From a virus (Duplodnaviria; Caudoviricetes), in IMG/VR virus record IMGVR_UViG_3300009031_000368, positions 167,715 to 231,714 of that record: a stretch of 64,000 bases of DNA. One strand, given 5' to 3'. The notes below the pieces were generated by a model. The model saw nothing but the letters and a program-made list of their open reading frames with translations, was not told where the DNA came from and did no database searches. A program made the translations under genes and the position numbers. Below are positions 38,308 to 51,672 of the stretch, in pieces. Numbering within the stretch: the first letter of the stretch is position 1; every line of letters begins with the position of its first letter.

Positions 38308-38720
38308 AACTTACCGTTCTCTTTCTCCTGTGCAATTGATTGCGTCACTTCACTGTTTGCATCTCTGTATTCCTGTCGCAACGATTCAACACAATGCTCC
38401 CAATAGTTACGCTTATGTTCTGACAACTCAGACAAGTCAACAGGAATTTCTGGATGATCCAATAGTACATCATCCAGATTGCATGTTACCAGCTTTACCT
38501 TGTATCCTTTCGTAGTTATTTTTACACCTGTAATACTGTACTGCTTGCCGCGCTTTTCTGGATCATGAATCAATTGCTGATAACAGCCGTCATAGTAACC
38601 TGGCTGTCGCTCAACGAAATAGATATCTTCACTTCCGACTACAACTGGTAACTGGCCGGTTGGATCTTCGCGCTTTAACATTTCAATCAATTCATCGGTG
38701 GTCATTTCGTAACTCCTCAC
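38304..38720 (-). CDS. hypothetical protein
   Basis: ORF in operon. Confidence 0.6.
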   Translation of the reverse strand: MRSYEMTTDELIEMLKREDPTGQLPVVVGSEDIYFVERQPGYYDGCYQQLIHDPEKRGKQYSITGVKITTKGYKVKLVTCNLDDVLLDHPEIPVDLSELSEHKRNYWEHCVESLRQEYRDANSEVTQSIAQEKENGKL

Positions 38721-39150
38721 GTACCAGCATTAAAATCCTGCCAAGCATATTGGATCCAGAACCATCACCACCATCGCCCCAATACCTGTCACGTTCAGTA
38801 TGTTCAACAAGTCGTTTGTTGCCGGTCGATAGTAGAATTTGCTTCAACGCTGGATGCTGCTTGAACTTAGCCAACACTATATCATACATGACTGAATCTT
38901 TAACCTGTTCCCAATCTGGACGCAACGGTCTATCGTGACTTCTTCCCATCCTGGCAGCTTCACTTGGAGTTACAGCATTCAGAATGTCGGATTCATGGCA
39001 TGTTCCGGCAAACTTTTGAGCCTGAAAGTAGTGTTCACTGGTCGGCCAAATTGTTCCATTGATGTTTATGTCGCATCGGTAGAAGTTTGAAAAGCATCCA
39101 TACCGGCCATATGTACCATAAAACCAAATTTCATCTTCTGGCTGTTTCAT
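38692..39150 (-). CDS. NADAR (YbiA-like) ADP-ribosyl/N-glycosyl hydrolase
   Basis: FSNFY, WPTSEHYFQAQKF, RPDWEQVK, AKFKQH, LVEH...DRYWG...NMLGRILM.VR. Confidence 0.95.
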   Translation of the reverse strand: MKQPEDEIWFYGTYGRYGCFSNFYRCDININGTIWPTSEHYFQAQKFAGTCHESDILNAVTPSEAARMGRSHDRPLRPDWEQVKDSVMYDIVLAKFKQHPALKQILLSTGNKRLVEHTERDRYWGDGGDGSGSNMLGRILMLVREELRNDHR

Positions 39151-39353: not shown

Positions 39354-39759
39354 CTATCGTTACACTTATAGGCCAATCTGATTCAATGTCGGCCACAACC
39401 GTTTTAGTGTTTGGCCCTAACACATATTCCAGTTCCTTAAAAGTCACAGGCTCAACAAGTACATCAATACTGTAACCAGGTCCATAAACGTTATAACATA
39501 CTGATGTCTCTGAATATCGGCTTGCCACGATATTGAATCCACGATATTTTAGATCTGAAGCTTCGTTGGGATAAAACAGTATCCGCATGCTGCCAAGTGT
39601 ATCGTGATCAAATCGACGTCGAAGTGATGCAAAGAAATCATTCGGGCGACATACCGGATTTTCGTGTCTTACCTTTTCGTATCGTTGAAGAGACTCGATT
39701 ACAGACTGAACGGCTTCAGCTAACATGATTATTCCAATCGGATTAGATTTTTGCGACAC
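39292..39759 (-). CDS. hypothetical protein
   Basis: Start probably MLAEAVQ. Confidence 0.55.
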   Translation of the reverse strand: MSQKSNPIGIIMLAEAVQSVIESLQRYEKVRHENPVCRPNDFFASLRRRFDHDTLGSMRILFYPNEASDLKYRGFNIVASRYSETSVCYNVYGPGYSIDVLVEPVTFKELEYVLGPNTKTVVADIESDWPISVTIDDKTVLCGCYDDLAEFLSSH

Positions 39760-39950
39760 CAGTGGATTGTTTTTTCTTGTATGAAGTCGGTTTGATTACG
39801 GATCGTAACACTATCGTCACCTACCGATATAACTTCATAGAAGTATGTCCTGTTATCCGTTTTGAGCACGTAGCGTCCTGGCTCAATTACCACATGTGCA
39901 TATTTGGCTTGCTCTTCAAAGTATCGCTTTTGTCCAGGCGTCATCGTCAT
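39729..39950 (-). CDS. hypothetical protein
   Basis: AAGGA RBS. Confidence 0.6.
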   Translation of the reverse strand: MTMTPGQKRYFEEQAKYAHVVIEPGRYVLKTDNRTYFYEVISVGDDSVTIRNQTDFIQEKTIHWCRKNLIRLE

Positions 39951-39976
39951 TGTCCTTGTCCTTAAAGTGTATACAG

Positions 39977-40053
39977 TCCGGGATATTGGGCTCGAACCAA
40001 TATGTAACCAATTACGCTTTCTACTGGTTATAGGCCAGAGGCGATAATCCCGG
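39977..40053 (-). ncRNA. non-canonical tRNA-like RNA, UAU anticodon, no normal D-arm
   Basis: Acceptor stem CCGGGAT/ATCCCGG+A; T-arm ATTGG-TTCGAGC-CCAAT; CTGG-CCTATAA-CCAG arm; extra hairpin GTAA-TTGG-TTAC. Confidence 0.75.
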
Positions 40054-40073: not shown

Positions 40074-40304
40074 TCAATTGAACAACCGACGAAACACTTT
40101 AACCAGTTCTGCCTTGTCGACCTCTATTACACGATTCCTATGCAATGAGATCTTGACATGATTCGATTCATCATCAACCGTAAATGATAGCTCGTTGAAC
40201 AATTCATCAAATTCATCGTAACCGGCACCATCCTCGATCTCATCACGCTTGCTGTCATGCTCTATTTCAATTGTCGCCGATGTTTTCATCATTCTCTCCA
40301 TCAC
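40074..40304 (-). CDS. hypothetical protein
   Basis: Acidic ORF. Confidence 0.55.
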   Translation of the reverse strand: MMERMMKTSATIEIEHDSKRDEIEDGAGYDEFDELFNELSFTVDDESNHVKISLHRNRVIEVDKAELVKVFRRLFN

Positions 40305-49606: not shown

Positions 49607-50014
49607 TTACTCTCCTTTGTTTACACCACAATAACGCAAACATTGATGTTCAAAATCTGAATTTTTGCACTTATGTTCACCAAGCACTGGAATATGTGCC
49701 TGGAACCATTCTTCAGCCATGCTGTAGTCATAAACAATGCTGGATGACTCAATGAAACAAACAAGGTGTCCATTTATTGATACGAAATCAAACTCTGCGC
49801 ACACAGGCATTGGTTCATATTCGTCTTTTTGGTTTCTGCGATACAATGTACCTATTTGCTGAATGAATCCTCCATGTTGGATCCATTCCATGGAGTACTT
49901 TATCGATTTACTCTCGTTGTTATACGACTGCCATGCGTTATATCTACTATCGCCATCTTCGATAACGACATACTCTATCTGTTTGAGCGCGTCAGCCAGG
50001 GTACCTAACATCAT
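49607..50014 (-). CDS. hypothetical protein
   Basis: Coupled to the 2H gene. Confidence 0.6.
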   Translation of the reverse strand: MMLGTLADALKQIEYVVIEDGDSRYNAWQSYNNESKSIKYSMEWIQHGGFIQQIGTLYRRNQKDEYEPMPVCAEFDFVSINGHLVCFIESSSIVYDYSMAEEWFQAHIPVLGEHKCKNSDFEHQCLRYCGVNKGE

Positions 50015-50592
50015 AGCGGTTCTACCTTTGTCGTTTTACCAACCGTATACACGATTTTCTGCCCAACGGCAGGAACGAAGTCGAAGATATCACGATTTAT
50101 GTAAATGTTATACGATTCATCGTTAAATGTTACATCCATGTAAACCTTAATGGGTCCAATATGCGTGATGATGGCATCATAGTGTATATTGATGGGACAC
50201 ATAACGTTTCGGCCCAAGCTGATATGAAAGTCAGAACGTGGTTTATCGGATAACCCATAATGTTGCCTGATTTCAGTAAGTGCCTTACAGACGACCGATA
50301 ACCACCATGTTTTGCCATCAGTCATCACGTTACTGCTATATTGAAAATAAAACTTAAGTCCGTCATGACCGTACCAGTCTTCAACGTTACGGTTCGGCTT
50401 TTCACTCTTTATGATGGAAATGTGAGAACCAAACGCGGGACGTTCAAGCATTACTCCGCGCTTACGTAGGAATGACCGGTACAGATCAACGATGCCTTCA
50501 CTACACTTCAACGACATCCGCCAATCTGTAATTGACTGTTTACCACTAAGTGTTGGCGGATCCGTTACAATGTAACCATAACTGTCAAGCAT
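50011..50592 (-). CDS. 2H phosphoesterase family protein
   Basis: Two HxS motifs, PAFGSHISII and SDFHISLG. Confidence 0.75.
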   Translation of the reverse strand: MLDSYGYIVTDPPTLSGKQSITDWRMSLKCSEGIVDLYRSFLRKRGVMLERPAFGSHISIIKSEKPNRNVEDWYGHDGLKFYFQYSSNVMTDGKTWWLSVVCKALTEIRQHYGLSDKPRSDFHISLGRNVMCPINIHYDAIITHIGPIKVYMDVTFNDESYNIYINRDIFDFVPAVGQKIVYTVGKTTKVEPL

Positions 50593-51202
50593 TGGTAATT
50601 ATCCTAAACGTTGACTTCAATCCATTATAGATAGGCTGGAATTCTGCCTTGTAGATTTCCCAACCAGTATCCGCTGGATGCCGACTAATTGATTGCCAGT
50701 AATGTTGCACGGAATCAAAATCAATCGTGCCAACCATTGCCAGTTGGATGCCAAAATCTATGATGCGCAGACTATGGAACAGGCTCTTTCTTGCCGTATG
50801 TGGCGCATAATCGGCCGGAACCGTTAGCTTCTTTTTGGCTTTAACGAAACTGTTGGATGCCTTAGCCGAAAATGATTCTCTCAGCATCCGCGTATCTGGC
50901 TCGAAATCGAATATAATAGTTTGTTTAAGCACATGACGGTATGGTAACATCACACATTCGACAGCCGTTACATCATGGCAAAACAATGCACGTTTAAAGT
51001 CCGTTTCGCCGTAAACGGTTACATCAATCATTGGCGCTTGAAGTTGAACGTATTGATATTCGTCTGACGCCACTACAATGTAATCGGTATCTGACTGTTC
51101 TGATGCTGTTCCATAAACCGTTGACCCATACCGGTATACGTTATGGATAACAGTTATGCCGTTAGAGGCAAGAAGCAACATGAGTTGTTCTAATTCATTC
51201 AT
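50585..51202 (-). CDS. pol-beta superfamily nucleotidyltransferase
   Basis: YRYGSTVYGTASEQSDTDYIVV (GS...DxD); helical C-terminus KSLFHSLRI. Confidence 0.85.
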   Translation of the reverse strand: MNELEQLMLLLASNGITVIHNVYRYGSTVYGTASEQSDTDYIVVASDEYQYVQLQAPMIDVTVYGETDFKRALFCHDVTAVECVMLPYRHVLKQTIIFDFEPDTRMLRESFSAKASNSFVKAKKKLTVPADYAPHTARKSLFHSLRIIDFGIQLAMVGTIDFDSVQHYWQSISRHPADTGWEIYKAEFQPIYNGLKSTFRIITNA

Positions 51203-51672
51203 TGTTTTCCGACAAGCATTCTTCCGTGTCCTGAAATATTGAGCTGGAAGTGACCAACGTTAAATCCAAGACCTTCAGCATATCTGGCTAGATGGTTGTA
51301 CCATGCCAGACTATTACCAGTTTTGAATTCAGTAACTGTTGGCCGGACACAACACGGGACAACCGCGAACGGTACTTTTCGCTTTGCCGCTTCAGCGATT
51401 ATTACATCGGTGGCTTCATCGGGATGCATACCGACCACAAGATCAAATTCATCCTTAATCGATTGATCAAACAGTCGCCACCTGATGTTAACCCGTCTGG
51501 CATTCTTTCGACGCTGTCCATCGAAGCTAACAACATGGTAACCAAACCGTGACAATTCTAGATTCAGCTCGCCAGTACCGCCAGCCACATCGGCAACCAG
51601 TCGATACATGGATACTGGAAATTGCCGTGCAATCAATTGCGCAAACTCGACAAAACGCCTTGAATCGCCCAT
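51199..51672 (-). CDS. class I SAM-dependent methyltransferase
   Basis: VADVAGGTG motif I; FDLVVGMHPDEAT; PFAVVPCC. Confidence 0.8.
   Translation of the reverse strand: MGDSRRFVEFAQLIARQFPVSMYRLVADVAGGTGELNLELSRFGYHVVSFDGQRRKNARRVNIRWRLFDQSIKDEFDLVVGMHPDEATDVIIAEAAKRKVPFAVVPCCVRPTVTEFKTGNSLAWYNHLARYAEGLGFNVGHFQLNISGHGRMLVGKQ

What the first reader, a model, noticed from the sequence alone, without database searches (positions are those of the whole stretch)
39977..40053. Rearranged tRNA-like RNA with UAU anticodon and a D-loop-like hairpin on the wrong side
Seen (minus strand): CCGGGAT-TATCGCCT-CTGG CCTATAA CCAG-TAGAAAGC-GTAA TTGG TTAC-AT-ATTGG TTCGAGC CCAAT-ATCCCGG-A. The acceptor stem and T-arm are perfect and the 7-nt loop has anticodon TAT. 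There is no D-arm, position 33 is C rather than U, and a GG-containing hairpin sits in the variable-arm position; CGC can pair with GCG to extend the anticodon helix. CCA is not encoded. It is solitary in an intergenic gap. Established: most bacteria read AUA with lysidine-modified CAU tRNA, and phage tRNAs can offset anticodon nucleases. Inference: an AUA decoder, a nuclease decoy or a tRNA-mimic regulator.
Basis: partly seen in the sequence, partly recalled or inferred. Interest (0 to 1): 0.72.

Follow-up and report, generated by a model that had tools for sequence, protein, structure and literature searches.

The report
Rewired phage isoleucine tRNA, C33 variant
This 77-base gene belongs to a large, apparently undescribed family of phage tRNAs in which the D-stem/D-loop block lies behind the anticodon arm instead of in front of it, so tRNA finders miss them; this copy most likely reads the isoleucine codon AUA.

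Summary
The sequence is as described: a perfect 7-bp acceptor stem, a perfect T-arm, discriminator A, a 7-nt loop CCUAUAA, no CCA, alone in an intergenic gap of a 232-kb uncultured groundwater phage. ARAGORN and Rfam call nothing.

It is not a one-off. I collected 136 distinct 77-nt relatives, nearly all from phage contigs, and found further copies in cultured Streptomyces phages and a crAss-like phage. Most sit in tRNA arrays on the same strand.

Four helices covary: acceptor, 11-13/37-39, anticodon stem and T stem. It is the D-loop equivalent (A14, A15, G18, G19, A21).

Moving block 37-49 in front of block 10-32 in silico makes ARAGORN of 136 as normal tRNAs with the expected anticodon. Arginine members carry A at the A20-equivalent position in 21 of 21 cases.

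The window copy is intact. Its only departure is C33, shared with two other diverged members. Best reading: a working tRNA-Ile(UAU). Expression and charging are untested.

This scan reached the same "rewired tRNA" reading earlier on other DNA. I found no published description.

The parts
40047..40053 (-). Acceptor stem, 5' strand (RNA positions 1-7, CCGGGAU)
   Evidence: Pairs 7/7 with 39978-39984. In the family all 7 pairs show changes on both sides and 97.3% of cells are paired.
40044..40046 (-). U8 A9 U10 connector. It leads straight into the strand that corresponds to the 3' strand of a normal D stem.
   Evidence: Invariant (U8, A9) or 49/51 (U10) in the set collected with a pattern that left these positions free.
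40041..40043 (-). Positions 11-13 (CGC): D-stem equivalent, pairs with 37-39
   Evidence: 3 of 3 pairs have changes on both sides and 99.2% of cells are paired, e.g. C-G to A-U and G-C to C-G.
40024..40040 (-). C14 U15 plus the anticodon arm. Stem 16-19/27-30 (CUGG/CCAG); loop 20-26 CCUAUAA with C at position 33, anticodon UAU at 40030-40032, and A37.
   Evidence: The stem covaries in 4/4 pairs, 99.4% paired. The loop is CU-NNN-A-N in 134 of 136 distinct members. C33 occurs only here, in L186 and in L196.
40018..40023 (-). Linker U31 A32 G33 A34 A35 A36. It joins the anticodon stem back to the D-stem equivalent. GAAA has no counterpart in a normal tRNA.
   Evidence: GAAA was invariant in 51/51 members collected with a pattern that did not fix it.
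40015..40017 (-). Positions 37-39 (GCG): the other strand of the D-stem equivalent
   Evidence: See 40041-40043.
40002..40014 (-). U40 AAUUGGUUA CAU: the D-loop equivalent (A41=A14, A42=A15, G45 G46=G18 G19, U47=position 20, A49=A21) fused to a short variable-loop equivalent (C50 A51 U52=position 48)
   Evidence: Variation at 47/48 is not compensated at 41/42. Position 47 is A in 21/21 arginine members and U in 114/115 others. The block-swap test restores a normal D arm.
39985..40001 (-). T arm: stem AUUGG/CCAAU, loop UUCGAGC
   Evidence: 5/5 pairs. In the family 97.9% of cells are paired and 4 of 5 pairs have changes on both sides.
39977..39984 (-). Acceptor stem 3' strand (AUCCCGG) and discriminator A (39977)
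   Evidence: The discriminator is A in 107/107 Ile-type members.
39976..39976 (-). C directly after the discriminator (would be C74). The rest of CCA is not encoded.
   Evidence: The first trailer base is C in 132 of 134 family members. Full CCA is encoded in 26.
39729..39950 (-). 73-aa ORF 27 nt downstream, same strand. Its link to the tRNA gene is possibly conserved.
   Evidence: A homologue (38% identity over the alignment; tblastn E 4e-6) directly follows the C33 rewired tRNA in an otherwise unrelated 229-kb phage, L186/G001.

Best explanation
The element is an intact gene for a non-canonical tRNA of a widespread, phage-specific class whose core is wired in a different strand order. In a normal tRNA the order is: D-stem 5' strand, D loop, D-stem 3' strand, anticodon arm, variable loop. 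Here the order is: D-stem 3'-strand equivalent (10-13), anticodon arm (15-31), a GAAA linker, D-stem 5'-strand equivalent (37-40), D-loop equivalent (41-49), then a 3-nt variable-loop equivalent (50-52). In effect the D/anticodon domain is circularly permuted.

The D stem and anticodon stem therefore form one continuous interrupted hairpin. The GG of the D-loop equivalent is still placed next to the T arm, so the usual L-shape with its elbow contacts can form. That last step is inferred.

The RNA would be cut out of the polycistronic transcript by RNase P and 3' processing, and completed to CCA by a CCA-adding enzyme; the phage itself encodes a CCA-adding-like protein. It would then be charged by the host IleRS and read AUA through its UAU anticodon, supplementing a codon that makes up 21% of the phage's isoleucine codons.

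Shown: family membership, the four helices, the block order, and identity features that track the anticodon. Inferred: 3D fold, processing, charging and decoding. The effect of C33 is unknown.
For: (1) Full-length 77-nt homologues: LR756500.1 (62.6 bits, E 1e-16, inside a tRNA array); 68 of 68 IMG/VR pattern hits; more than 119 further loci; 136 distinct sequences in all.
(2) Covariation on 85 distinct rows: acceptor 97.3%, 11-13/37-39 99.2%, anticodon stem 99.4%, T stem 97.9% paired. Changes on both sides occur in 18 of these 19 pairs. Slid controls pair in 37-48% of cells.
(3) Block-swap test: ARAGORN/136 in native order. It with the right anticodon and full acceptor after block 37-49 is moved in front of 10-32. 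With random block order it. The window copy becomes tRNA-Ile(tat).
(4) tRNA-like behaviour: 127 of 185 members have a canonical tRNA within 300 nt, always on the same strand. Only 8 share their anticodon with a canonical tRNA in the same locus. In Jay2Jay and Kehishuvirus tikkala the rewired copy is GAU and the canonical Ile tRNA is UAU.
(5) Anticodons are limited to Ile, Met/Ile2, Val and Arg. The A20-equivalent position is A in 21/21 Arg members against 1/115 others (Fisher p 9e-24). A37 is invariant and U33 is present in 134/136.
(6) The window copy is intact: 19/19 helix pairs, and one deviation (U33 to C) from the 26 positions conserved at 95% or more. Its family-model score of 89.2 bits lies within the 86.6-94.7 bits of copies in other phages.
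(7) C33 is also found in L186 and in L196, the latter inside a tRNA array. These three are only 51-53/77 identical to each other and differ by compensated stem changes.
(8) AUA is 20.9% of Ile codons, 13.8 per 1000.
(9) The phage encodes a 462-aa CCA-adding-like enzyme.
Against: There is no RNA evidence: only DNA runs hold the region, so transcription, processing, CCA addition and aminoacylation are all untested, for this copy and for the family.

C33 replaces the almost universal U33 of elongator tRNAs and could weaken or change decoding.

The copy is solitary, with no other tRNA in 232 kb, although the record is only 76% complete.

No promoter or terminator signal stands out.

The host and its AUA-decoding capacity are unknown, so the codon-supplement argument is incomplete.

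The A20-equivalent association could partly reflect shared ancestry of the Arg members.

The 3D equivalence is a topological argument, not a model or a probing result.
Confidence: 0.7

Rival explanations
1. A tRNA-shaped RNA that is made and processed but does not decode. It could be a decoy or sponge for host tRNA-directed defence enzymes (anticodon nucleases, tRNA acetyltransferases), or a regulator that binds a tRNA-binding protein.
For: The rewired core and C33 make it unlike normal substrates. It is solitary in a phage with no other tRNA. RNA-repair-like genes (2H phosphoesterase, pol-beta NTase, methyltransferase; weak Pfam matches) and a NADAR gene lie in the same window. A small conserved protein follows the C33 copies in two phages.
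Against: The family keeps what decoding and charging need: a 7-nt loop with U33/A37, sense anticodons of four amino acids, discriminator and A20-equivalent tracking the anticodon, and complementarity to canonical tRNA sets. A decoy would be expected to copy the targeted host tRNA, including its D arm.
Confidence: 0.12
2. A recently inactivated copy: a member of the functional rewired family that lost function through U33 to C and survives as a relic in a phage that no longer needs it.
For: C33 is the one departure from the conserved positions. The gene is alone, outside any tRNA array.
Against: All 19 helix pairs and all other conserved positions are intact, and the score equals that of array-embedded members. 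C33 recurs in two other members that are only 51-53/77 identical and differ by compensated stem changes, one of them inside a tRNA array. That pattern indicates C33 is maintained or tolerated under selection. The sequence is identical in contigs of three further groundwater runs that cover the element, drawn from two studies.
Confidence: 0.1
3. An mRNA punctuation signal. The acceptor/T-arm minihelix serves only as an RNase P / RNase Z cleavage site that separates the upstream and downstream messages, like plant mitochondrial t-elements.
For: It lies between two co-oriented ORFs with gaps of 20 and 26 nt. An acceptor/T minihelix is a sufficient RNase P substrate (established knowledge).
Against: This does not explain the conserved and covarying anticodon arm, the D-stem equivalent, the invariant GAAA and D-loop-like segment, or the anticodon-linked identity positions. 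Processing would happen anyway as a by-product of tRNA maturation.
Confidence: 0.05
4. A chance arrangement of hairpins, or a terminator-like structure.
For: The single-sequence fold is only modestly better than shuffles (z -2.3). A weak terminator-like hairpin on the opposite strand overlaps the 5' edge.
Against: More than 180 full-length homologues with covarying helices.
Confidence: 0.01

Closest known systems
Canonical bacterial and phage tRNA-Ile(UAU), e.g. the annotated tRNA-Ile(tat) of Streptomyces phage Jay2Jay (L089:4702-4776) and of Kehishuvirus tikkala (L090:2735-2809)
   Same: 7/5 acceptor/T branch, T-loop consensus, discriminator A, 7-nt anticodon loop with UAU and A37, D-loop-type AAUUGG(U)UA motif, a D stem of 3 Watson-Crick pairs plus a possible U10-U40 layer, and placement in phage tRNA arrays. 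After an in-silico swap of two blocks it is called a normal tRNA-Ile.
   Different: The strand order of the core differs: the D-stem 5' strand and D loop lie 3' of the anticodon arm, joined by an extra GAAA. There is no cloverleaf D arm, so ARAGORN and the Rfam tRNA model do not see it. This copy also has C33.
D-armless mitochondrial tRNAs (e.g. metazoan mt-tRNA-Ser(AGY))
   Same: No hairpin between the acceptor stem and the anticodon arm. Missed by standard finders.
   Different: Those tRNAs have lost the D stem and the GG motif and are shorter. Here both are kept, only relocated. The length is a normal 77 nt. ARAGORN's mitochondrial modes find nothing.
Class II tRNAs (Leu, Ser, bacterial Tyr) with a long variable arm
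   Same: A roughly 20-nt segment lies between the anticodon arm and the T arm.
   Different: In class II tRNAs that segment is a covarying hairpin added to a normal D arm. Here the putative hairpin does not covary, carries D-loop signature bases, and no separate D arm exists.
Circularly permuted tRNA genes of Cyanidioschyzon merolae and other algae, and split tRNAs of Nanoarchaeum (from my own knowledge)
   Same: A permutation of tRNA segments at the gene level.
   Different: There the whole gene is permuted (3' half before 5' half) and processing restores an ordinary cloverleaf. Here the termini are normal and the permutation is internal, so the mature RNA itself would have the altered topology.
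(8/4) and (9/3) tRNAs and allo-tRNAs (Mukai et al. 2017, PMC5389517)
   Same: Non-canonical tRNAs found in bacteria and phages and missed or mis-annotated by standard tools. UAU is a frequent allo-tRNA anticodon.
   Different: Those change the acceptor/T split and keep a D arm in its usual place. This family keeps the 7/5 split and rewires the D/anticodon domain.

Membership tests
Rewired phage tRNA family (defined here; alignment A4, model R2) | 77 nt with a 7-bp acceptor, 5-bp T stem, T-loop UUCRANY and a discriminator | tested here: met
   (89.2 bits, E 2e-22, full length 1-77)
Rewired phage tRNA family (defined here; alignment A4, model R2) | U8 A9 U10, helix 11-13/37-39, C14 U15, 4-bp anticodon stem, GAAA linker at 33-36 | tested here: met
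   All present in the window copy; helices supported by covariation
Rewired phage tRNA family (defined here; alignment A4, model R2) | D-loop-like U-AA-NN-GG-NN-A followed by CAU directly before the T stem | tested here: met
   UAAUUGGUUACAU at 40002-40014
Rewired phage tRNA family (defined here; alignment A4, model R2) | Anticodon loop C/U32-U33-NNN-A37-N38 | tested here: inconclusive
   The loop is CCUAUAA: C33 instead of U33. This is shared with 2 other members (L186, L196); 134/136 have U33.
Canonical tRNA (Rfam RF00005 / ARAGORN cloverleaf) | D arm (stem 10-13/22-25 with GG loop) between the acceptor stem and the anticodon arm | tested here: not met
   ARAGORN finds 0 genes. There is no RF00005 match even at E up to 10. 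Native order gives 0/136 calls.
Canonical tRNA (Rfam RF00005 / ARAGORN cloverleaf) | Acceptor/T coaxial branch of 7+5 bp with the T-loop consensus | tested here: met
Functional elongator tRNA-Ile | Transcribed, end-processed, CCA-tailed and aminoacylated by IleRS; reads AUA on the ribosome | not testable with these tools
   Only DNA runs hold the region; needs tRNA-seq and charging assays
Class II tRNA (long variable arm) | Covarying variable-arm hairpin in addition to a normal D arm | tested here: not met
   Helix 40-42/47-49 is only 77% paired and pair 41-48 is unpaired in 38 of 84 rows; there is no D arm
D-armless mitochondrial-type tRNA | D arm replaced by a short loop, no D-stem or GG equivalent, reduced length | tested here: not met
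   D-stem and GG equivalents are present; ARAGORN -mt and -mtmam find nothing
(8/4) or (9/3) allo-tRNA | Acceptor stem of 8 or 9 bp with a T stem of 4 or 3 bp | tested here: not met
   The 7/5 split is kept throughout the family

The most novel reading that the evidence does not exclude
The mature RNA is a working tRNA whose D/anticodon domain is circularly permuted. That would be a natural tRNA with a strand topology different from the universal cloverleaf that is still accepted by RNase P, the CCA enzyme, synthetases, EF-Tu and the ribosome. Phages would keep this wiring because it escapes host enzymes that recognise the D arm of tRNA-Ile and tRNA-Arg, such as anticodon nucleases and other tRNA-directed toxins. 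In the C33 subgroup, C33 would further tune AUA versus AUG reading, possibly together with the small conserved protein encoded just downstream.
Probability: 0.2. Interest if true: 0.92.

Novelty: new variant of a known kind. Interest (0 to 1): 0.8.

Why it matters
The cloverleaf is treated as universal outside organelles. A large class of tRNAs that keeps every structural module but connects them in a different order would have several consequences.

- It would show that the translation machinery reads the three-dimensional shape of a tRNA, not its strand path.
- It would offer a natural scaffold for tRNA engineering.
- It would expose a systematic blind spot. These genes are unannotated in nearly all deposited phage genomes I looked at, including cultured Streptomyces and crAss-like phages, so phage tRNA repertoires and codon-compensation analyses are incomplete.
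- For this phage, it turns a "tRNA-free" 232-kb genome into one that carries a single dedicated AUA decoder plus a CCA-adding-like enzyme.
- The recurrent C33 variant gives a natural test of what U33 is needed for.

Tried and rejected
Searches that led nowhere:
- blastn of 1.1 kb around the element against GenBank phages: no match.
- Neighbouring proteins as synteny anchors. The 363-aa and 164-aa ORFs and the major capsid protein gave no IMG/VR relatives. The 164-aa, 144-aa and 73-aa ORFs are near-orphans in the protein collections.
- The acceptor-anchored pattern found only an ordinary tRNA-Val(UAC) that happens to share the acceptor stem.
- The pattern GGCCTATAACC...GGTTCGAGCC gave nothing.

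Structures and calls I rejected:
- The Rfam hit to BjrC1505 (13 bits, E 5) is noise.
- ARAGORN at 50-60% threshold draws a poor 'tRNA-Leu(aag)', rejected as an artefact. So are ARAGORN's 87-nt 'tRNA-Ile' call on L010 and the 'tRNA-Leu' label in phage EGole.
- The single-sequence MFE fold (8-bp helix 24-31/42-49): only 57-71% paired in the family, no compensation.
- The variable-arm hairpin: not supported.

Sequencing runs: no RNA holder is listed. Contigs of three groundwater DNA runs cover the element (a fourth, a soil-labelled run, does not) and are identical over it, so they give no covariation.

Chance hits set aside: 12 of 14 prokaryote-genome pattern hits, L195, and 13 of 16 metagenome hits.

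The 73-aa downstream protein: the model has pLDDT 76.6 and a small SH3-like barrel, with no significant PDB match (best E 0.027). No function is assigned. L196's downstream ORF shows no evident similarity to it by eye; I did not align the two.

Literature: six full-text searches found no description of this architecture. Mukai et al. 2017 describe a different class.

Full report
**1. The observation**

CCGGGAU-UAUCGCCU-CUGG-CCUAUAA-CCAG-UAGAAAGC-GUAA-UUGG-UUAC-AU-AUUGG-UUCGAGC-CCAAU-AUCCCGG-A

- The acceptor stem (7/7 pairs) and the T arm (5/5 pairs, full T-loop consensus) are perfect.
- The 7-nt loop has C at position 33, anticodon UAU and A37.
- The trailer is CUG, so CCA is not encoded.
- The element fills most of the 123-nt gap between two co-oriented ORFs, 40074-40304 and 39729-39950.

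ARAGORN finds no tRNA in the window or in the whole 231,714-bp virus record in which it lies. Rfam gives nothing at gathering scores and no tRNA match even at E up to 10. The single-sequence fold is only modestly better than shuffles (z -2.3) and prefers a different helix. The sequence alone therefore could not settle the question.

**2. Finding relatives**

Flanking genes were no help: they are near-orphans. Contigs of three groundwater runs that cover the element carry it without a single difference, and no RNA run was listed.

A weak blastn hit led to LR756500.1, a 462-kb uncultured phage. There a single-sequence covariance model (R1) found a full-length 77-nt homologue (62.6 bits, E 1e-16). 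It lies directly behind tRNA-Trp in an array His-Glu-Val-Trp-[element]. That copy differs by compensated changes in the acceptor stem, the anticodon stem and the CGC/GCG helix, and its loop is CUGAUAC (anticodon GAU, also isoleucine).

I then scanned collections with patterns taken from the conserved part:
- A conserved-core pattern gave 68 IMG/VR loci. All 68 contain a full-length match.
- In 596 Gb of prokaryotic genomes the first pattern found 14 places. Only 2 are real, both on MAG contigs.
- Among GenBank phages, 81 records match. They include 77 Streptomyces phage records (Jay2Jay and relatives) and the crAss-like Kehishuvirus tikkala. The gene is unannotated, except in phage EGole, where it is labelled tRNA-Leu.

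The family is therefore large and essentially phage-specific.

**3. Anatomy from comparison**

I collected 136 distinct 77-nt sequences. On 85 distinct rows of alignment A4:

| Helix | Cells paired | Pairs with changes on both sides |
|---|---|---|
| Acceptor stem | 97.3% | 7/7 |
| 11-13 with 37-39 | 99.2% | 3/3 |
| Anticodon stem 16-19 with 27-30 | 99.4% | 4/4 |
| T stem | 97.9% | 4/5 |

Controls with the 3' partners slid by 1-3 columns pair in only 37-48% of cells.

Pair 41-48 is A-U in 46 rows and unpaired in 38, with no compensating change. The single-sequence MFE helix fares worse, at 57-71%.

The following were invariant or nearly so in the first set, whose search pattern left them free: U8 A9 U10, C14 U15 and G33 A34 A35 A36. 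C50 A51 U52 are conserved at 95% or more in the second set, whose pattern left those three positions free. U40 A41 A42 and G45 G46 were fixed by both search patterns, so their invariance was not tested independently.

The segment A41 A42 U U G45 G46 U U A49 has the signature of a D loop (A14, R15, G18, G19, A21). U52 sits where position 48 would be.

**4. What the architecture is**

Reading along the strand, the order is:
1. acceptor 5' strand, then U8 A9;
2. a strand equivalent to the 3' strand of the D stem (10-13);
3. C14 (equivalent to position 26);
4. the anticodon arm;
5. N32 (equivalent to position 44);
6. a GAAA linker;
7. the equivalent of the D-stem 5' strand (37-40);
8. the D-loop equivalent;
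9. three nucleotides;
10. the T arm and the acceptor 3' strand.

So two adjacent blocks of a normal tRNA, [D 5' strand + D loop] and [D 3' strand + 26 + anticodon arm + 44], stand in swapped order. This amounts to a circular permutation of the D/anticodon domain, closed by GAAA and opened at the end of the D loop.

I tested this directly:

| Block order | ARAGORN calls (of 136) |
|---|---|
| Native | 0 |
| Block 37-49 moved in front of 10-32, GAAA dropped | 135, all with the family anticodon and starting at acceptor base 1 |
| Same blocks in random order | 15 |

Treated this way, the window copy becomes a 74-75-nt tRNA-Ile(tat).

That the permuted RNA folds into the usual L-shape is an inference from topology. 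In a normal tRNA, positions 44 and 10 are neighbours in the stacked D/anticodon helix, and position 8 lies next to the 13-22 end of the D stem (established tRNA structure, from my own knowledge).

**5. Evidence that the family is made of working tRNAs**

- Context. 127 of 185 members have a canonical tRNA within 300 nt, always on the same strand. 17 are solitary, like this one. Only 8 share their anticodon with a canonical tRNA in the same locus. In Jay2Jay and tikkala the rewired gene has GAU and the canonical Ile tRNA has UAU.
- Anticodons. UAU 83, GAU 24, UCU 10, ACG 8, CAU 6, CCU 3, UAC 2.
- Loop features. A37 is invariant and U33 is present in 134 of 136.
- Discriminator. A in all Ile, Met and Val members; G in 13 of 21 Arg members.
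- A20 equivalent. The base after the GG (position 47) is A in 21 of 21 Arg members and U in 114 of 115 others (Fisher p 9e-24). A20 is the classical ArgRS identity element in E. coli (my own knowledge). The match supports both the D-loop assignment and real aminoacylation. Shared ancestry of the Arg members may inflate the statistic.
- Trailer. The base after the discriminator is C in 132 of 134 members, and full CCA is encoded in 26.

**6. This copy**

- It has 19 of 19 helix pairs.
- It departs from the 26 positions conserved at 95% or more only by U33 to C.
- Against the family model R2 it scores 89.2 bits. Copies in Jay2Jay, tikkala, LR756500.1 and G001 score 86.6-94.7 bits.
- It is the only match in its own genome.

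C33 is not private to this phage. L186 carries it; that locus lies in a complete 229-kb phage, G001, and the same sequence recurs in two metagenome contigs. L196 carries it too, inside an array Leu-Leu-Lys-Leu-Arg-[C33 Ile]-Val-Ser. The three C33 sequences are only 51-53/77 identical and differ by compensated stem changes. C33 is therefore tolerated or selected, not a sign of decay.

Two features of the phage fit a CCA-less AUA decoder. It uses AUA for 20.9% of its isoleucine codons, 13.8 per 1000. Outside the window it also encodes a 462-aa class II CCA-adding-like enzyme.

Still unknown: the host, whether the gene is expressed, and what C33 does.

**7. Rivals**

- A non-decoding decoy or regulator is not excluded, but it does not explain the identity features.
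- A dead relic is unlikely, given the intact helices and the recurrence of C33.
- A pure processing signal does not explain the conserved anticodon domain.
- Chance is excluded.

**8. Comparison with what is known**

The family works like an ordinary phage tRNA-Ile(UAU) but fails the defining cloverleaf test, because there is no D arm in the canonical place. It is also none of the following:
- a D-armless mitochondrial-type tRNA, because the D stem and GG are retained;
- a class II tRNA, because there is no covarying variable arm;
- an 8/4 or 9/3 allo-tRNA, because the 7/5 split is kept (PMC5389517);
- an algal-type permuted gene, because the termini are normal and the mature RNA itself would be permuted.

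Six full-text searches found no description. That library lacks most subscription journals, so a missed description remains possible.

Earlier notes of this scan on other genomes reached the same 'rewired tRNA' reading. I had reached it independently beforehand (note) and tested it here.

**9. Verdict**

This is a new variant of a known kind: a tRNA with a permuted core. This copy is a solitary C33 member of the family. Confidence is about 0.97 that it belongs to the family and about 0.7 that it is a working tRNA-Ile for AUA.

Noticed in passing
window 39729-39950 (-); L186:5009-5233 (-): The 73-aa ORF just downstream of the tRNA has a homologue (38% identity over the alignment, shared WCRK-L-R-E and PG-YV-KT motifs) directly downstream of the C33 rewired tRNA in an otherwise unrelated 229-kb phage. 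In that phage the tRNA's encoded CCA overlaps the gene's ribosome-binding site. The AlphaFold model (pLDDT 76.6) is a small SH3-like barrel with no significant PDB match. This may be a tRNA-plus-protein module.
   Followed up: partly
L220:556-1944 (-) = G000:C1:158917-160305, about 7.4 kb before the window's start: The phage encodes a 462-aa class II nucleotidyltransferase. It matches Pfam PolyA_pol above the cut-off (42.9 bits). Its best NCBIfam match is the multifunctional CCA addition/repair protein (E 4e-39, below the equivalog cut-off), with a weak HD-domain match. So the phage has a CCA-adding-like enzyme although only one tRNA gene, a non-canonical one, is detectable.
   Followed up: partly
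family-wide (A4, loci L006-L194); window 39976: The base right after the discriminator is C in 132 of 134 family members, although full CCA is encoded in only 26. The base before position 1 is T or A in 113 of 136.
   Followed up: partly
L089:1960-2571 (Streptomyces phage Jay2Jay) and L091 (EGole): In the Streptomyces phages the rewired tRNA-Ile(GAU) starts 14 nt after an annotated 'nucleotidyltransferase' gene and is unannotated in almost all records. EGole labels it tRNA-Leu, which the GAU anticodon contradicts.
   Followed up: partly
L137:872-950 (-) and L153:6375-6453 (-): A 79-nt variant with the same 5' part and a CUUAUAU loop, but with the GAAA linker replaced by a longer, different connector (..UCAUUAACAAGG..) and a shortened D-loop-like segment. 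It sits next to a standard family member. It may represent a second wiring solution.
   Followed up: no
window 50011-51672 (-): Three overlapping genes give weak, sub-threshold Pfam matches to a 2H phosphoesterase (2H-SAK), a pol-beta-type nucleotidyltransferase and a methyltransferase. This may be an RNA end-healing or repair set in the same window as the tRNA.
   Followed up: partly
window 38692-39150 (-): A clear NADAR-domain protein (Pfam E 1.5e-41) lies three ORFs (about 830 nt) downstream of the tRNA, in the same gene string.
   Followed up: no
window 40006-40012 and 39995-40001 (-): In this copy the word AUUGGUU occurs twice (RNA positions 42-48 and 53-59). This permits alternative pairings with AACCAG (25-30) and CCAAU (65-69) and explains the misleading MFE fold. 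The family does not conserve these alternatives.
   Followed up: yes
L002:12877-12952 (-): An unrelated 193-kb IMG/VR phage with 31 tRNA genes within a 13.6-kb locus has a normal tRNA-Val(UAC) with the same acceptor stem (CCGGGAU/AUCCCGG) and the same T loop as the window element. The rest is unrelated, so this is probably coincidence.
   Followed up: partly
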